IMG/VR virus record: IMGVR_UViG_2718218131_000005
From: a virus
Lineage: Duplodnaviria > Heunggongvirae > Uroviricota > Caudoviricetes
Length of the DNA stretch: 39,971 bases
Strand: one strand, 5' to 3'
Of the stretch, positions 1 to 24,943 are shown in pieces (positions within the stretch are counted from its first letter, which is position 1; every line of letters starts with the position of its first letter). The notes beneath the pieces were generated by a model, which was not told the origin of the DNA, did no database searches, and saw nothing but the letters and a program-made list of their open reading frames with translations. The position numbers were made by a program, and so were the translations under genes.

Positions 1-504
1 TTATTGATAGTGTTTTATGTTCAGATAATGCCCGATGACTTTGTCATGCAGCTCCACCGATTTTGAGAACGACAGCGACTTCCGTCCCAGCCGTGCCAGG
101 TGCTGCCTCAGATTCAGGTTATGCCGCTCAATTCGCTGCGTATATCGCTTGCTGATTACGTGCAGCTTTCCCTTCAGGCGGGATTCATACAGCGGCCAGC
201 CATCCGTCATCCATATCACCACGTCAAAGGGTGACAGCAGGCTCATAAGACGCCCCAGCGTCGCCATAGTGCGTTCACCGAATACGTGCGCAACAACCGT
301 CTTCCGGAGACTGTCATACGCGTAAAACAGCCAGCGCTGGCGCGATTTAGCCCCGACATAGCCCCACTGTTCGTCCATTTCCGCGCAGACGATGACGTCA
401 CTGCCCGGCTGTATGCGCGAGGTTACCGACTGCGGCCTGAGTTTTTTAAGTGACGTAAAATCGTGTTGAGGCCAACGCCCATAATGCGGGCAGTTGCCCG
501 GCAT
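1..504 (-). CDS. insB: IS1 InsB (transposase C-terminal part, normally expressed as InsAB' by -1 frameshift)
   Basis: 167 aa [67 protein letters not shown]...; overlaps insA in the -1 frame. Confidence 0.9.
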
Positions 505-698
505 CCAACGCCATTCATGGCCATATCAATGATTTTCTGGTGCGTACCGGGTTGAGAAGCGGTGTAAGTGAACTGCAGTTGCCATGTTTTACGGCAGTGA
601 GAGCAGAGATAGCGCTGATGTCCGGCGGTGCTTTTGCCGTTACGCACCACCCCGTCAGTAGCTGAACAGGAGGGACAGCTGATAGAAACAGAAGCCAC
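423..698 (-). CDS. insA: IS1 InsA (transposition regulator / N-terminal part of InsAB' transposase)
   Basis: 91 aa [42 protein letters not shown]... matches IS1 InsA as I recall it. Confidence 0.9.
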
Positions 699-2593: not shown

Positions 2594-5131
<2,538 letters not shown>

Positions 5132-5133
5132 AC

Positions 5134-6021
5134 TCAGGCTGCCAGATCATCGTTTCTGATGGAAGCATAATAAGCTTTTTCTGCTTCTGCCGGAGGGATA
5201 TGACCCAGCCTTCCCAGCAATCGTCGATTGTTATACCAGTCCACCCACGTGAGTGTGGCCAGTTCCACTTCTGCACGGTTTTTCCAGCTCTTACGGTGTA
5301 TTACCTCCGCTTTGTAAAGACCATTGATGCTCTCCGCCATCGCGTTGTCATACGAGTCACCTGTACTCCCTGTTGATGCCAGTAATCCGGCTTCTTTTAG
5401 TCGCTCCGTATAGGCCAGTGATACATACTGAGAACCTTTATCACTGTGATGGACTGTGCCGGACGGCCGACGGGCCCACAACGCCTGCTCCAGTGCATCC
5501 AGCACGAATGTTGTTTCCATGGATGATGAGACCTGCCATCCCACGATGTATCCGGCGAACACATCAATGATGAACGCCACATAAACGAAGCCCTGCCATG
5601 TGCTTACCCAGGTAAAATCAGCCACCCACAACTGGTCTGGACGTTCTGCCACGAACTGACGGTTTACGCGGTCGCATGCGGCAACGGCTTTCCGGCTGAC
5701 GGTAGTGCGGACCTTTTTACCCCGGAGAACACCGGCAAGTCCCATAACTGCCATGAGGCGCGCCACTGTACATCTGGCCACTCTGATACCTTCCCGTAAC
5801 AACTGACGCCAGACTTTACGCACACCGTATACCTGGTGATTTTCATCGTATACGCGCTGTATCTCTTTCTTCAGCCAGTCATCGTGCTGCGCACGGGCAC
5901 TGCGTTTATCCGGATGATGTCGCTGTTGCTGACAGTGGTAATACGTTGACGGGGCAATATGCAGTTCACTGCATACCGGTCCGACCCCGTACTGCTCACG
6001 CAGCTTATCCAGCAGCGGCAT
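5134..6021 (-). CDS. IS3-family transposase OrfB (DDE catalytic part; normally made as an OrfAB fusion by -1 frameshift)
   Basis: 295 aa with an integrase-core DDE region; -1 frame relative to orfA, overlapping the A-rich end of orfA. Confidence 0.85.
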   Translation of the reverse strand: MPLLDKLREQYGVGPVCSELHIAPSTYYHCQQQRHHPDKRSARAQHDDWLKKEIQRVYDENHQVYGVRKVWRQLLREGIRVARCTVARLMAVMGLAGVLRGKKVRTTVSRKAVAACDRVNRQFVAERPDQLWVADFTWVSTWQGFVYVAFIIDVFAGYIVGWQVSSSMETTFVLDALEQALWARRPSGTVHHSDKGSQYVSLAYTERLKEAGLLASTGSTGDSYDNAMAESINGLYKAEVIHRKSWKNRAEVELATLTWVDWYNNRRLLGRLGHIPPAEAEKAYYASIRNDDLAA

Positions 6022-6347
6022 TATTTTTTCCAGAGGCGGTCGAACTCCGCCTTCGCAAAATAAGCGGAAGCCTGGCGAAGGATATCGTTACTGCGGCGCA
6101 GTTCACGATTTTCACGTTCCAGCTCTTTCAGACGCTGACGTTCAGCGGTGGTGAGTCCACCATCACCACTCCCGGTATCCCGCTCATGCTGACGAACCCA
6201 CACACGCAGAGTCTCTGGTGTACAGCCAATCTTTGGGGCAATGGAACAAATTGCCGCCCATTGTGAGTCATATTCGCCCTGACTTTCCAGAACCATACGA
6301 ACTGCCCGTTGACGGACCTCGGGGGAAAAACGTGTATTTTTAGTCAT
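6021..6347 (-). CDS. IS3-family transposase OrfA (helix-turn-helix / leucine zipper part)
   Basis: 108 aa [57 protein letters not shown]..., matching IS629-group OrfA as recalled. Confidence 0.85.
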
Positions 6348-6401
6348 CCTGTTTACCTCTTTCTCAGGGAGTTTAGTCTCCAGGATTCCCGGGGCGGTTC
6401 A

Positions 6402-6496
<95 letters not shown>

Positions 6497-20226: not shown

Positions 20227-21366
20227 ATGGCTGGAAATACCCTGACCGGGTTGATCCCGACTATTTATACCGCCCTGGATGTTGTATCCCGTGAGCAGGT
20301 AGGTTTTATCCCTGCGGTAGCAAAAAACGCAAAAGCTGACGCCGCAGCAAAAGATCAGACGGTAACCGCGCCAGTTGCGCCTGAGGCGAAAACCGAAGAT
20401 ATCGTACCGGGGCCGTCAGCTCCGAATACCGGTGATCAAAATATTGGCACTGTTGATGTAAAAATTACTAAATCCAAAATGGCACCGGTTAAATGGAATG
20501 GTGAAGAACAACTGGCTCTTGGCCCTTCAGGGACTTACAACACCATTCTGGCTGATCAGTTCAAGCAGGCTTTTCGCGCCCTTGCAAACGAGGTTGAGGC
20601 TGATCTTGGTGCGTTGTATTTCGGTGCTTCCCGCGCCGTGGGAACCGCAGGGACAACGCCGTTTGGTGTTAAAGATGATCTTTCTGATGCTGCTCTGGCT
20701 CGTCAGGTTCTGGAGGATAACGGCGCACCGACAACCGATCTGCAGATGGTGCTTGGCTCCACTGCCATTGCTAATTTGCGCGGAAAACAGTCTGTATTGT
20801 TTAAAGTGAATGAATCCGGCACTGAACAGCTACTGCGTGAGGGCGTGTTGGGGTGTCTGGAGGGATTCAATATTCACAGTTCGGCAGGTGTGAAACGAGC
20901 GCCAAAGGTTGCTGCAACTGGTTATCTCGTGAATGGAGAGAAAAAAGAAGGCGATGTTCTTATTTCCATTGATACTGGTTCGGGGAGTATTTCTGCAGGT
21001 CAGATTGTTACGTTCGCTGGTGATCCGAATCAGTATGTTGTGGCAGCAGCGACCAGCAATCTGATTACTCTTGCAGCGCCCGGACTGCGTCAGGATCTGG
21101 CCGATGATACTGCCATCACAGTTGTTGGGGCCTTTACGGCAAATATGGCGTTTGATCGCAACGCGTTTCTGCTGGCATCCCGTACTCCGGCAATGCCGGA
21201 AGGTGGCGATAATGCTGATGATGTAATGAATGTTACGGACCCGATTTCAGGGATTACGTTCCAGATTGCACTGTATCGTCAGTATCGCCAGGTGCGCTAT
21301 GAAGTTGGACTGGCATGGGGTGTTTCATCAGTGAAGCCGGCACATGGTTGTCTGATTCTTGGTTAA
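20227..21366 (+). CDS. Major capsid protein
   Basis: About 380 aa after an AAGGA ribosome-binding site; follows the scaffold gene; terminator immediately downstream. Confidence 0.7.
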   Translation: MAGNTLTGLIPTIYTALDVVSREQVGFIPAVAKNAKADAAAKDQTVTAPVAPEAKTEDIVPGPSAPNTGDQNIGTVDVKITKSKMAPVKWNGEEQLALGPSGTYNTILADQFKQAFRALANEVEADLGALYFGASRAVGTAGTTPFGVKDDLSDAALARQVLEDNGAPTTDLQMVLGSTAIANLRGKQSVLFKVNESGTEQLLREGVLGCLEGFNIHSSAGVKRAPKVAATGYLVNGEKKEGDVLISIDTGSGSISAGQIVTFAGDPNQYVVAAATSNLITLAAPGLRQDLADDTAITVVGAFTANMAFDRNAFLLASRTPAMPEGGDNADDVMNVTDPISGITFQIALYRQYRQVRYEVGLAWGVSSVKPAHGCLILG

Positions 21367-21396: not shown

Positions 21397-21588
21397 AATG
21401 GGGGGCATATGGCCGGATTAACTAAAGAGCAAAGAGCACAGCGTGAAGCCGCACAAAAAACGCAAATTGAGTTAGTGGTTATGGTGACCGATTATCAGAT
21501 GTTTCCCGGCGCACCAACTATCGCTAATGTTCATCCTGATGAAGTTGACAACTGGAAGGCTATGGGCTGGAAAACTCAGGAGTAACAC

Positions 21589-21983
21589 ATGATCACTTAC
21601 GTGACCTGTGATGACGTTGATAATGCGTTTGGGAACGCCTGGACGAGTGAGAACGCTAAAAATAAAGCTGTTTTAATGGCTAATGCCTGGCTTAATGGCT
21701 CAACCTGAAAATTAACCCATCCCGTATTCCGGAAGAGGTAAAACTTGCGGGAGCATATGCAGCCAGAATTGCCTCATTCGGTAAGTTGTTTCAGCAGAAA
21801 AATGATTCTGGCGTTGTTATCAGTAAAGCCGTGTCGGCTGACGGGGTCAGTGTATCGAAATCATTTTCTGAGTTGCCAGCAAACAGCACTGCATTGCTTG
21901 AACCCGATTTACAGCTTGCGATAGCACTGCTGAAACCGTACGGACTTAGTCGCTCACAAGTCAGGGTTGTGAGGGGGGGATAA
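21589..21983 (+). pseudogene. Head-tail connector (gp6-like) gene apparently interrupted by a frameshift
   Basis: ATG at 21589 after an AGGAG ribosome-binding site reads MITYVTCDDVDNAFGNAWTSENAKNKAVLMANAWLNGST and stops at 21706-21708; a second frame, open from 21696, continues WLNLKINPSRIPEEVKLAGAYAARIASFGKLFQQ... to 21983. The two frames overlap on the residues WLN. Confidence 0.5.
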
Positions 21984-22366
21984 TGGGGCTTCGTGAAGAG
22001 ATTCAGTCAGAGGTTGCCGCTGCTTTTGATGAGGATTTAGCGGACGCCGTGAGTGATTTTTCTGGTTCTTACGTTACGCACCGGCACTGGGATCCTGTGA
22101 CGGAAACTGGCGGCGAATCCACCGCAATCTATACCGGGCGAGGCGTGTTGACACGTTATAAGCTGGGCAGAATTGATGGGATTAATATTTTGCATGGTGA
22201 CCTTAAATTAACCGCTCTGGTATGCGAGGTTACGGATAAACCAGCTGTCGACCATATTATTGAGATTTATGATCCTGTATCAAGGCAGTTACAACGATAC
22301 GAGGTAATTACAGCAAGTGTAGATCCTTCCGCATCAGTTTACTCTATCCAGTTAAGGAGAGCGTAA
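21983..22366 (+). CDS. Head-tail joining / head closure protein (hypothetical)
   Basis: 127 aa in the conserved neck-gene position between connector and tail genes. Confidence 0.5.
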   Translation: MGLREEIQSEVAAAFDEDLADAVSDFSGSYVTHRHWDPVTETGGESTAIYTGRGVLTRYKLGRIDGINILHGDLKLTALVCEVTDKPAVDHIIEIYDPVSRQLQRYEVITASVDPSASVYSIQLRRA

Positions 22367-22747
22367 ATGGCAAAGGCATGGGATATAGAACCGTCAATAT
22401 TTGCCGGGATGATTGAGGAAGATGTAGGGCTGAAGATTCGCTACATCGCTATTCAGATTCTTACTGCTATTGATATTGCTGCTCCGGTTGATACCGGACG
22501 TTTCAGAAATAACAACCTGGTGTCGTTACAGCATCCCGATTTTGGTATATCTGATAACGTGGATCCGAACGGTACGATTGCTGTTCAGCGTGGGATCGGG
22601 GTTATTTCGAAAGCTGCAAATTACGGAGTTATTTATATCCAGAATAACCTTCCTTATGCAGAGGCTCTTGAAAACGGTCATTCACAACAAGCGCCAACTG
22701 GCGTGTATGCCAACGCTTTTCATGGTGTTTTACAGGCTTACAAATGA
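22367..22747 (+). CDS. HK97 gp10-like neck / tail completion protein
   Basis: 126 aa ending …YAEALENGHSQQAPTGVYANAF…, reminiscent of the HK97 gp10 family. Confidence 0.55.
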   Translation: MAKAWDIEPSIFAGMIEEDVGLKIRYIAIQILTAIDIAAPVDTGRFRNNNLVSLQHPDFGISDNVDPNGTIAVQRGIGVISKAANYGVIYIQNNLPYAEALENGHSQQAPTGVYANAFHGVLQAYK

Positions 22748-23136
22748 CGTTTACTGAAATCAGAAATACGGTTATTTCCAGAATGACGGCACAGACGATT
22801 ATTGATGGAAAAGACGTATTGTATCCGAACGCGCCAACGTTCGATCCTTCCGGTAAGTTAATCTGGGCGCGGTTAAGTAATATTCCCGGGCAGGCTGGAG
22901 TTAATGAAATTGGCGCGGGGCCGATTGTTTATCGCACGGGGATAATCATTATTCAGTTATTTGTCCCCGCAGGTTCTGGTTCAAAACTCATTACTGAGAC
23001 AGCCGATAAATTGCGGGAACTGTTTGAGTTTCAGGATGACGATCGTCTCAGTTACCAGGCTGTTTCCTCAATAGCCGTTGGCGAAAAGAATGGCTGGTTC
23101 CAGCTTAATCTTCAAATTCCATATCGCGCGCTCTAG
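22744..23136 (+). CDS. Tail terminator-like protein (gpU-like position)
   Basis: 130 aa immediately upstream of the major tail protein gene. Confidence 0.5.
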   Translation: MTFTEIRNTVISRMTAQTIIDGKDVLYPNAPTFDPSGKLIWARLSNIPGQAGVNEIGAGPIVYRTGIIIIQLFVPAGSGSKLITETADKLRELFEFQDDDRLSYQAVSSIAVGEKNGWFQLNLQIPYRAL

Positions 23137-23162: not shown

Positions 23163-24125
23163 GTGAGTTCAGGTGCAAAGGTTATCTCGGCATTTATCCG
23201 GGAGACGGTTGCAGGCACTACGCCAGCAAGTGGTGACTGGAGTTTATTAAAACGCACAAGCTGGGGAGTAAAACCCACCCAGAATAAAGGCGAAAATAAT
23301 GAGATTGGTGGCTCCCGGATGGCTCAGGGGGCGACGCCTGGCACTGTGGATGTCGGCGGTGATGTTGGTACCAAATTTCGCTGGGGTCAACATGATGATT
23401 TTCTTGCATCCTGTTTCGGCGCGGAATGGTCAGGCGATTCTCTGACAATGGGGAATGAGCGAATAACATTTTCTCTGGCGACCTATGCGTCCGATGTCGG
23501 AATTGCCTCTGTCGTCAGAGGAGCGCAGGTTGGCTCATGGAAAATGCAGATCCCTAACGACGGCGATATTACAGCGACCGTAACCTTTGCCGGACTGGAC
23601 TGGGAATCAAAGGCCGATGATACGAATTTTATCAAAGGCGAACCTGTGGATAGTGCAGGAAAGCTACGTTATTCGTTTAAGGAGGTTTCAGCAGTAAGCC
23701 TGAATGGTGTTGCCGGAGGTAACGGTTTTTGTATCGACAGTTTTGATATTCAGTTCGATAACAAACTCCAGACACAGCGTTGTATCGGGACTGGCTCGCC
23801 TTATGCAGGAGCAAATATTCCGACTACTTTTACACCGTCCGGTACGGTGACGCTTTCATGGTCTAAAGCCGCGTGGGAAATCTGGAGTAAAACACTGACT
23901 GGAGAAACAGTTCCGTTCAGCTTCACGCTTTCGAATGGAGAGGGGGCATACACTTTCAGTTTCCCGAAGGTTCAGGTGTCAGGTGAATGGCCTGATGGGG
24001 GTAATAGCGACATTATCCAGGTTCAATTGAGCATTACCGCAGCAGATGAAGCACCTACGATAACCAGAAAAAAAAATTCCCCGGCTGCCGTGATCGCAAA
24101 AGCCAGTGCTGAGGCGATTAGTTGA
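23163..24125 (+). CDS. Major tail (tube) protein
   Basis: GTG start after an AGGAGG ribosome-binding site; 320 aa, Gly/Thr-rich; position before the chaperone pair and tape measure. Confidence 0.7.
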   Translation: MSSGAKVISAFIRETVAGTTPASGDWSLLKRTSWGVKPTQNKGENNEIGGSRMAQGATPGTVDVGGDVGTKFRWGQHDDFLASCFGAEWSGDSLTMGNERITFSLATYASDVGIASVVRGAQVGSWKMQIPNDGDITATVTFAGLDWESKADDTNFIKGEPVDSAGKLRYSFKEVSAVSLNGVAGGNGFCIDSFDIQFDNKLQTQRCIGTGSPYAGANIPTTFTPSGTVTLSWSKAAWEIWSKTLTGETVPFSFTLSNGEGAYTFSFPKVQVSGEWPDGGNSDIIQVQLSITAADEAPTITRKKNSPAAVIAKASAEAIS

Positions 24126-24173: not shown

Positions 24174-24635
24174 ATGAGGTTATGGATGTTTATTCTTAAT
24201 CAGAAAATTATCATTGGTGGAGAACGCTGGTTTACGCCAATGAAGGACTTAAAACCTGTAGACGGGTTAAAACTGTTGGTGGCAAGCAGCGATAACGATC
24301 AGTATCGCTCCCGTAATGCATTAATCCGTCGCCACATTGAGAAAATGGATGCCAGTTTGCACGTCGGAACGAAGGAGTTTGATATTTCAAAGGTTTCCGA
24401 GGTGGATTCTGTTGATGATTTACTCATTGATAATGCCGCTCGTTATCTGCTGAAAGACTGGAAAGGGGTTGGTGAACTGGTTAATGGTGTTGAGGTTGCA
24501 CTGGAATATACGGCAGAACGAGGGATCGCGCTGCTTAAGCAGAATCCAGAGTTGTACTGGCAGATCCTTGCAGAAGCAGCCAGCATCGCCCAGGGTAAAG
24601 AGCAGCAGAAGCAGGATACGATAAAAAAGCCATAG
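24174..24635 (+). CDS. Tail assembly chaperone (lambda G-like)
   Basis: Acidic about 150 aa protein between the major tail and tape measure genes; ends at a slippery heptamer. Confidence 0.7.
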   Translation: MRLWMFILNQKIIIGGERWFTPMKDLKPVDGLKLLVASSDNDQYRSRNALIRRHIEKMDASLHVGTKEFDISKVSEVDSVDDLLIDNAARYLLKDWKGVGELVNGVEVALEYTAERGIALLKQNPELYWQILAEAASIAQGKEQQKQDTIKKP

Positions 24636-24943
24636 CTGCCCAGCGGTGGTTATCGGAGTTCGGGGGAGAAAGGGGGGAAAAGGCAAGATGGAAGCGAGAA
24701 AAACTCAGGTTGCCACCGATACCGGAACCAGAAATAGACCCGGTGCTTAAGGAGTTGTTGTACGCCTATTCGGTAATATCCCGTGCCCGACGTTATGCTG
24801 GAATGGCTGGGGTGCCTTTGCCTTTATCTCTGACAGAGATAAATGAATATTTAGCCACTCATCCGGTATTGATTGAGCGCGATGAATTTGAAGCAGTGAT
24901 CTTTGCACTGGATGACCAGTATTTTCAGGAGCAGTGTGTGTAG
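24174..24943 (+). CDS. Tail assembly chaperone fusion (lambda GT-like) made by programmed -1 ribosomal frameshift at 24623-24629
   Basis: Heptamer A_AAA_AAG at 24623-24629, three codons before the G stop; the -1 frame is open from there to 24943 (…KKAIAAQRWLSEFGGERGEKARWKREKLRLPPIPEPEIDPVLKELL…). Confidence 0.65.

What the first reader, a model, noticed from the sequence alone, without database searches (positions are those of the whole stretch)
21589..21983. Head-tail connector gene appears frameshifted
A well-initiated ORF (ribosome-binding site AGGAG, ATG 21589) terminates at 21706-21708 after 39 codons, while a second frame, open from 21696, continues to 21983, where the next gene starts. 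The two frames overlap on the residues W-L-N. Together they would give a protein of about 130 aa of the size and position expected for a gp6-like connector. There is no obvious slippery heptamer at the junction, so this looks like a single-base indel (or sequencing error) rather than programmed frameshifting. If real it would probably block virion assembly, leaving an otherwise intact-looking prophage defective.
Basis: seen in the sequence. Interest (0 to 1): 0.45.

Follow-up and report, generated by a model that had tools for sequence, protein, structure and literature searches.

The report
Frameshifted adaptor gene in Rac prophage
A phage gene needed to join heads to tails has lost one base and is a dead pseudogene inside the old, decaying Rac prophage of E. 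coli; this is ordinary prophage decay and public annotations already flag it.

Summary
An RBS-preceded ORF (21589-21708, 39 codons) stops early, and a second frame (21696-21983) runs on to the start of the next gene. Intact relatives carry one 396-bp ORF of 131 aa. The window lacks one T of a TT pair (intact AATGGCTTCAAC, window AATGGC-TCAAC, at 21699/21700). The protein is the head-to-tail adaptor (Ad1; HK97 gp6 / SPP1 gp15 type). It matches PHROG 493 at E=7e-49, lies in the order capsid-Ad1-Hc1-Ne1-Tc1-tail tube, and its predicted fold matches solved phage adaptors.

It is not a sequencing error. The same allele occurs in 19 of 5,426 complete E. coli genomes, against 699 with the intact allele. 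The carriers share one haplotype and one chromosomal flank.

It is not programmed recoding. There is no slippery site, no RNA element, and homologues in nine genera are single ORFs.

The element is the Rac prophage at ttcA. In the window's strain it is not otherwise intact: intR has a nonsense codon, recE is split by an IS, and IS1A, IS100 and IS3 sit in the early region. A carrier without those lesions shows the frameshift came first. RefSeq already annotates this locus as a frameshifted pseudogene. Interest is low.

The parts
21578..21582 (+). Shine-Dalgarno AGGAG, 6 nt upstream of the ATG
   Evidence: Read directly from the sequence.
21589..21983 (+). Whole adaptor (Ad1) pseudogene, 395 bp. 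The intact allele is 396 bp and encodes 131 aa (WP_000634214.1).
   Evidence: Alignment with intact copies. PGAP marks it 'frameshifted' in identical records. The repaired protein matches phrog_493 at E=7.4e-49 over its full length.
21589..21708 (+). N-terminal fragment ORF: 37 native residues, then Ser-Thr, then TGA
   Evidence: It matches phrog_493 positions 1-37 (E=9.5e-14). It covers only helices 1-2 of the predicted fold.
21699..21700 (+). Site of the 1-nt deletion. Intact copies read GGC TTC AAC (G-F-N); the window reads GGC-TCAAC.
   Evidence: All 7 sampled carriers show the same gap and all 4 sampled intact copies have TT.
21696..21983 (+). Downstream frame (-1 relative to ORF1) that encodes residues 39-131 of the adaptor. 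It has no usable start codon.
   Evidence: It matches phrog_493 positions 39-127 (E=4.3e-29). The first possible start is TTG 21786, with no Shine-Dalgarno, giving 65 aa.
20227..21366 (+). Major capsid protein (P22-coat family); context
   Evidence: PGAP annotation of the identical source record.
21409..21585 (+). 58-aa conserved phage protein of unknown function; context
   Evidence: phrog_1514, E=3.5e-43.
21983..22366 (+). Head-closure protein Hc1, the adaptor's partner, intact
   Evidence: phrog_161, E=1.5e-28.
22367..22747 (+). Tail completion / Neck1 (Ne1) protein, intact
   Evidence: phrog_169, E=2.6e-55.
22744..23136 (+). Tail terminator (Tc1), intact
   Evidence: phrog_179, E=2.8e-41; Pfam PF13554, E=4e-8.
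23163..24125 (+). Tail tube protein, intact
   Evidence: PGAP annotation.

Best explanation
The locus is the head-to-tail adaptor gene (Ad1 class, the functional and structural equivalent of SPP1 gp15 and HK97 gp6) of a Rac-type lambdoid prophage integrated at ttcA. A spontaneous loss of one T from a TT pair in codon 38 (TTC) shifts the reading frame. Translation from the normal start gives 37 native residues plus Ser-Thr and then stops. The remaining 93 codons lie in the -1 frame with no start codon or ribosome-binding site, so no full-length adaptor can be made.

In characterised phages, twelve adaptor subunits bind the portal after DNA packaging and create the seat for the head-closure protein (Hc1), to which the tail docks. 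Without the adaptor, filled heads should lose their DNA or fail to join tails. This step is inferred from what is known of SPP1, HK97 and lambda; it was not tested here.

The mutation arose once in one Rac haplotype and has been inherited vertically in one E. coli lineage. It was an early lesion. The window's chicken-associated sub-lineage later acquired an intR nonsense codon, an IS3 in recE, and IS1A, IS100 and IS3 insertions. It is neutral or near-neutral prophage decay.
For: Lesion:
- There is a one-base gap relative to intact copies that are otherwise identical over 397 bp.

Gene identity:
- The repaired protein matches phrog_493 'head-tail adaptor Ad1' at E=7.4e-49 over its full length, and the neighbouring genes are Hc1, Ne1 and Tc1 in canonical Type-1 neck order (order as defined in PMC4362835).
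- The AlphaFold model has three helices, a beta-hairpin and a C-terminal helix.

Loss of function:
- The break lies in the most conserved motif (LMANAWLNG), and 13 of the 21 invariant positions lie downstream of it.
- The only downstream start candidates are TTG/GTG codons without a Shine-Dalgarno, giving at most 65 aa.

A real allele, not an error:
- 19 complete genomes carry it and 699 carry the intact allele.
- Carriers differ by 3-14 SNPs in 20 kb. They differ by 16-24 from the nearest intact copy and by 113-216 from the others.
- Carriers share three marker SNPs (13386A, 20854T, 24136A) that are absent from all four sampled intact copies.
- The chromosomal flank ttcA-smrA differs by 1 SNP in 5,436 bp between two carriers, and by 54-55 SNPs from an intact-allele strain.

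Order of decay:
- Carrier NCTC9080 has intact intR, xisR, recET and lysis genes and none of the IS3, IS100 or IS1A copies.
- The source strain has intR with a G-to-T nonsense change at codon 53 and recE split by IS3.
- Carrier DXMF6-3R has gone on to lose everything from the middle of this gene to the tape-measure gene behind an IS1203.

Decay is general in this prophage family:
- Intact-allele copies carry other lesions: frameshifted tail genes, and an IS1A in the Hc1 gene.
- The protein database holds other broken alleles of this same gene.
Confidence: 0.93

Rival explanations
1. Sequencing or assembly error: the gene is really intact and the missing T is an artefact of this assembly.
For: Single-base indels are the commonest assembly error, and nearly all related copies (699) are intact.
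Against: The site is a TT pair, not a homopolymer run. The identical deletion is present in 19 complete genomes from unrelated projects, hosts and countries, including NCTC9080. It is linked to three marker SNPs and to a shared chromosomal flank, which an artefact would not be.
Confidence: 0.02
2. Programmed recoding: a -1 ribosomal frameshift or transcriptional slippage in the 21696-21708 overlap restores a full-length adaptor at some frequency.
For: The two frames overlap by 13 nt, and the downstream frame is fully open to the normal stop codon. Phages do use programmed frameshifts. This same window has a genuine one at A_AAA_AAG, 24623-24629, in the tail chaperone gene.
Against: There is no X_XXY_YYZ heptamer anywhere in ORF1, no A/T run of 8 or more, and no Rfam match. 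The two-frame layout is not conserved: 699 E. coli copies and homologues in nine genera are single in-frame ORFs. The allele differs from intact copies only by the deletion.
Confidence: 0.01
3. Selected inactivation. Loss of the adaptor was favoured because it grounds Rac and its cargo (trkG, toxin-antitoxin genes, transporters) in the chromosome, or because the 39-aa N-terminal peptide interferes with assembly of superinfecting Rac-like phages.
For: The allele has persisted and spread across hosts and continents in one lineage. The N-terminal fragment keeps its native promoter context, RBS and two conserved helices.
Against: It accounts for only 19 of 718 typed copies and has a single origin, so there is no sign of recurrent selection. 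Other Rac copies decay at many different genes, as expected for neutral erosion. Further lesions piled up afterwards in the same element.
Confidence: 0.03
4. The lesion is an 8-bp tandem duplication (TGGCTTAA/TGGCTCAA), which would also explain the duplicated W-L-N.
For: Removing 21688-21695 in silico restores a single open frame.
Against: Intact homologues contain the same near-repeat (TGGCTTAATGGCTTCAA, encoding W-L-N-G-F-N) and differ from the window by exactly one T. The family consensus is AWLNGxNL.
Confidence: 0

Closest known systems
RefSeq/PGAP pseudogene 'protein singed; frameshifted' (e.g. WHU28_RS14435 in NZ_CP148507.1, HRR20_RS23325 in NZ_AP021893.1)
   Same: Identical sequence and identical coordinates. 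The frameshift is already recorded in the public annotation of the source genome and of the other carriers.
   Different: The annotation gives no function (the product name is misleading), no position for the indel, and no population or haplotype context.
HK97 gp6 / SPP1 gp15 head-to-tail adaptors (Ad1 of the Type-1 neck; Lopes et al. 2014, PMC4362835)
   Different: Only 12-18% identity to solved adaptors. There is no hit to Pfam PF05135 and no sequence-level hit in the PDB. By sequence it sits closest to PF20557 'DnaT_2'. Here the gene is broken.
Rac cryptic prophage of E. coli K-12 (integrated in ttcA; PMC4632033)
   Same: Same integration site and the same hallmark genes: intR, xisR, ralR, recET, racC, kilR, sieB, trkG, ynaK, ydaY, tfaR, pinR.
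   Different: From my own knowledge, not tested here: K-12 Rac has lost the whole terminase-to-tail-tube block. This version keeps a complete morphogenesis module and has lost function by point lesions and IS insertions instead.
Lambda gpW (head-stabilisation / head-tail joining protein)
   Same: [quoted passage not shown]
   Different: It has an unrelated fold and sequence, so it is a functional analogue only.

Membership tests
Head-to-tail adaptor Ad1 (SPP1 gp15 / HK97 gp6 type; PHROG 493) | Significant full-length sequence match to an Ad1 profile | tested here: met
   phrog_493 at E=7.4e-49, residues 2-130 against profile positions 1-127 of 128. The window's own fragments score E=9.5e-14 and 4.3e-29 on adjoining profile segments.
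Head-to-tail adaptor Ad1 (SPP1 gp15 / HK97 gp6 type; PHROG 493) | [quoted passage not shown] | tested here: met
   The order is capsid 20227-21366, Ad1 21589-21983, Hc1 21983-22366, Ne1 22367-22747, Tc1 22744-23136, tail tube 23163-24125.
Head-to-tail adaptor Ad1 (SPP1 gp15 / HK97 gp6 type; PHROG 493) | Alpha-helical bundle fold shared with solved adaptors | tested here: met
Head-to-tail adaptor Ad1 (SPP1 gp15 / HK97 gp6 type; PHROG 493) | Forms a 12-mer ring on the portal and is required for tail attachment | not testable with these tools
   This needs virion structure or genetics.
Head-to-tail adaptor Ad1 (SPP1 gp15 / HK97 gp6 type; PHROG 493) | Uninterrupted coding sequence (a functional member) | tested here: not met
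   A 1-nt deletion at 21699/21700 gives a stop after 39 codons. The window copy is a pseudogene of this family.
Pfam PF05135 Phage_connect_1 (gp6-like head-tail connector) | Match to the Pfam model at its gathering score | tested here: not met
   No hit even at E<=1 for the repaired protein, and none among 27 homologues at E<=0.01.
Pfam PF20557 DnaT_2 (putative DnaT-like ssDNA-binding protein) | Match to the Pfam model at its gathering score (27 bits) | tested here: inconclusive
   The E. coli protein scores 19.5 bits (E=1e-3), below the cut-off. 26 of 27 homologues match at E<=0.01, the best at 3e-7. It is related to this family, but the family name does not describe the function indicated here.
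Programmed -1 ribosomal frameshift | Slippery heptamer X_XXY_YYZ in the zero frame within the overlap | tested here: not met
   None anywhere in ORF1. For contrast, A_AAA_AAG is present at 24623-24629 in the tail chaperone gene.
Programmed -1 ribosomal frameshift | The two-frame arrangement is conserved in homologues | tested here: not met
   Homologues are single ORFs of 130-136 aa in nine genera, and 699 E. coli copies are in frame.
Rac prophage | Integration at ttcA, with intR/xisR, recET, racC, kilR, sieB, trkG, ydaY and pinR | tested here: met
   Annotation of the identical source record and of other carriers.

The most novel reading that the evidence does not exclude
The adaptor frameshift was not neutral. 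Either it was favoured because it locks a cargo-rich Rac prophage into the chromosome, or the still-expressed 39-aa N-terminal peptide (two conserved helices, with its native RBS) acts as a dominant-negative decoy that poisons neck assembly of superinfecting Rac-like phages.
Probability: 0.03. Interest if true: 0.35.

Novelty: already known. Interest (0 to 1): 0.07.

Why it matters
It matters little beyond annotation. It shows that this Rac copy cannot make tailed particles. It dates the adaptor lesion as an early step in the decay of one Rac lineage, before the IS invasion and the loss of integrase. It gives a functional label (head-to-tail adaptor) to a protein that public annotation calls 'protein singed' or 'DnaT-like ssDNA-binding protein'. 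The delta-T allele, together with the marker SNPs 13386A, 20854T and 24136A, could serve as a lineage marker.

Tried and rejected
1. An 8-bp tandem duplication as the lesion. It was suggested by TGGCTTAA/TGGCTCAA and the doubled W-L-N. It is rejected because the near-repeat is native to intact genes.

2. Programmed frameshift or transcriptional slippage. Rejected: no slippery heptamer, no long homopolymer, no Rfam hit, and the layout is not conserved.

3. Sequencing error. Rejected on 19 independent carriers with linked SNPs.

4. Using GenBank 'phage' records as proof that the intact module makes virions. This failed. The nine vB_EcoS records are PHASTER predictions from draft genomes, and SPF_0923 contains chromosomal genes.

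5. Searches that found nothing for the adaptor: NCBIfam, a PDB sequence-profile search, and Pfam PF05135.

6. The multiple alignment of DXMF6-3R downstream of its IS1203 was unusable because IS sequence was forced against phage sequence. Only its left part was used.

Full report
**Observation.** AGGAG (21578-21582) precedes ATG 21589 by 6 nt. That frame ends at TGA 21706-21708 after 39 codons. A second frame, -1 relative to the first, is open from 21696 to TAA 21981-21983, and that stop overlaps the ATG of the next gene (TAATG). Both frames read W-L-N in the overlap.

I first suspected an 8-bp tandem duplication (TGGCTTAA/TGGCTCAA), because deleting it restores one frame. Comparison with relatives rejected this.

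**What the lesion is.** A 1-kb query around the site matched 759 complete E. coli genomes and 10 'phage' records at 99% identity or more. Some matched base for base and most had one extra base. An alignment of the gene from the window, one identical genome, two intact genomes and two phage records is identical over 397 columns apart from two SNPs in one record and a single gap. Intact copies read AAT GGC TTC AAC and the window reads AATGGC-TCAAC. So one T of a TT pair is missing at 21699/21700.

The intact gene is 396 bp and encodes 131 aa (WP_000634214.1). The native sequence already contains the near-repeat that produces the doubled W-L-N, so that feature is incidental. The window's product would be 37 native residues plus Ser-Thr. 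In the identical public records PGAP already marks this locus 'frameshifted'.

**What the gene is.**
- The repaired protein matches PHROG 493 'head-tail adaptor Ad1' over its full length (E=7.4e-49).
- The next three genes match head closure Hc1, tail completion/Ne1 and tail terminator Tc1. This is the canonical Type-1 (SPP1-like) neck order Ad1-Hc1-Ne1-Tc1 defined by Lopes et al. (PMC4362835).
- The window's own two fragments hit adjoining segments of the same profile: positions 1-37 and 39-127.
- Pfam gives only a sub-threshold hit to PF20557 'DnaT_2' (19.5 bits against a cut-off of 27) and nothing for PF05135, the gp6-like connector family. 26 of 27 homologues touch PF20557 at E<=0.01.
- NCBIfam and a PDB sequence-profile search found nothing.
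- An AlphaFold model built on 27 homologues has moderate confidence (mean pLDDT 66.8, about 80 in the helices). It shows three helices, a beta-hairpin and a C-terminal helix.

So 'gp6-like connector' is right for fold and role, though not for Pfam membership.

**Is the gene naturally split, or recoded?** No.
- Homologues from E. coli, E. albertii, Citrobacter, Salmonella, Pectobacterium, Pantoea, Serratia, Tatumella and Pluralibacter are single ORFs of 130-136 aa.
- The deletion lies in the family's most conserved motif (LMANAWLNG), and 13 of the 21 invariant positions lie downstream of it.
- ORF1 has no X_XXY_YYZ heptamer. The region has no A/T run longer than 5 at or near the junction. Rfam finds nothing.
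- The first possible restart in the downstream frame is TTG 21786, with no Shine-Dalgarno, giving 65 aa.
- As a positive control, the same window holds a textbook programmed -1 site. The tail chaperone gene ydaY ends ...A_AAA_AAG CCA TAG (24623-24629), and its -1 frame is open to 24943.

**Is it an error?** No.
- Probes of 50 and 51 nt centred on the indel, so that the other allele cannot provide a 28-nt seed, found the delta-T allele in 19 complete-genome records and the intact allele in 699.
- The carriers come from humans, chickens, a frog and a giant panda, from Viet Nam, Singapore, South Korea, Pakistan and China, plus the reference strain NCTC9080.
- Over 20 kb of prophage, six carriers differ from one another by 3-14 SNPs. 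They differ by 16-24 from the nearest intact copy and by 113-216 from three others.
- All sampled carriers share 13386A, 20854T and 24136A, which are absent from the four intact copies.
- The chromosomal flank ttcA-smrA differs by 1 SNP in 5,436 bp between two carriers, and by 54-55 SNPs from intact-allele strain C21.

This pattern indicates one mutation, inherited vertically in one host lineage.

In the source strain it is heavily damaged:
- intR carries a G-to-T nonsense change at codon 53.
- recE is split by an IS3.
- IS1A sits in flxA (window 1-698).
- IS100 plus IS3 sit between two late-region genes (about 3230-6496).
- ynaK is truncated, and further IS3 and ISNCY copies lie upstream.

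So 'otherwise intact-looking' does not hold for this strain. Carrier NCTC9080, however, has intact intR, xisR, recET and lysis genes and none of those IS3, IS100 or IS1A copies. The adaptor frameshift therefore predates the rest. Carrier DXMF6-3R has since lost everything from the middle of this gene to the tape-measure gene behind an IS1203.

Intact-allele Rac copies carry other, independent lesions: frameshifted tail genes in CUVET20-1667 and strain 7/2, and an IS1A in the Hc1 gene of PF9285. The protein database also holds other broken alleles of this very gene. This is the expected picture of a vertically inherited prophage eroding at random.

**Consequence (inferred).** In SPP1, HK97 and, by analogy, lambda gpW, the adaptor binds the portal after packaging and seats the head-closure protein to which the tail attaches (PMC4362835; established knowledge). 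A 39-residue fragment holding only helices 1-2 cannot do this, so tailed particles should not form.

I could not show that even the intact version yields infectious phage. The vB_EcoS 'phages' are PHASTER predictions, and SPF_0923 contains sitABCD, uspF, ompN and ydbK.

**Verdict.** This is a real, heritable one-base deletion that inactivates the head-to-tail adaptor gene of a Rac prophage. It is already annotated as a frameshifted pseudogene in RefSeq, and it is one of many decay lesions in this element. The finding is ordinary.

Noticed in passing
window 24276-24943 (slippery site 24623-24629): A genuine programmed -1 frameshift of the lambda G/GT type. The tail assembly chaperone gene ydaY (phrog_313, E=1e-37) ends ATA AAA AAG CCA TAG, with the canonical A_AAA_AAG heptamer. 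The -1 frame is open to 24943 and matches phrog_1189, and weakly the distal part of phrog_313. PGAP annotates the two parts as separate genes.
   Followed up: partly
window 1-698 and about 3230-6496: IS1A is inserted in flxA. An IS100 (istAB) plus IS3 block lies between the DUF1367 and DUF1364 genes, and the DUF1364 gene is annotated shorter here (258 nt) than in the carriers without the insertion (291 nt). The BLAST coordinates against a carrier without the insertion overlap by 7 bp, which suggests a target-site duplication. These insertions occur only in the chicken sub-lineage of the delta-T carriers.
   Followed up: partly
L016 6279-7514 (just left of the window; NZ_CP148507.1 2899278-2900513): The Rac integrase intR of the source strain has a single G-to-T nonsense change at nt 157 (codon 53), which carrier NCTC9080 lacks. 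recE next to it is split by an IS3. The prophage can probably no longer excise by its own integrase.
   Followed up: yes
window 21973-21979: There is a G7 run two bases before the TAATG stop/start overlap with the Hc1 gene. Database variant P0019 ends ...VRVVRGDNGAS, which points to a G-run length change in another strain. This is a second mutable spot in the same gene.
   Followed up: no
window 21589-21983; L013 10310-11469; L008 1554-2513: Public product names here are misleading. The Ad1 adaptor is called 'protein singed' or 'DnaT-like ssDNA-binding protein'. The IS1A-split Hc1 gene is called 'glutamate 5-kinase'. The gene of about 310-320 aa upstream of the terminase is called 'GREB1-related protein'.
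   Followed up: partly
L019 (ON032529.1) and ON470581-ON470616: GenBank 'phage' records that carry this module are not virion genomes. SPF_0923 includes sitABCD, uspF, ompN and ydbK. The vB_EcoS records are PHASTER-predicted prophages from draft genomes of clinical isolates.
   Followed up: yes
L008 10155-11491 (E. coli DXMF6-3R): In one delta-T carrier an IS1203 sits inside the adaptor pseudogene, and everything from there to the 3' end of the tape-measure gene is deleted. This is a later stage of the same decay.
   Followed up: partly
window 21409-21585: A 58-aa ORF lies between the capsid and adaptor genes. It is perfectly conserved (phrog_1514, E=3.5e-43) but has no known function. One database entry (P0001, 191 aa) fuses it to the adaptor, probably through read-through of the TAA stop in a variant or a gene-calling artefact.
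   Followed up: no
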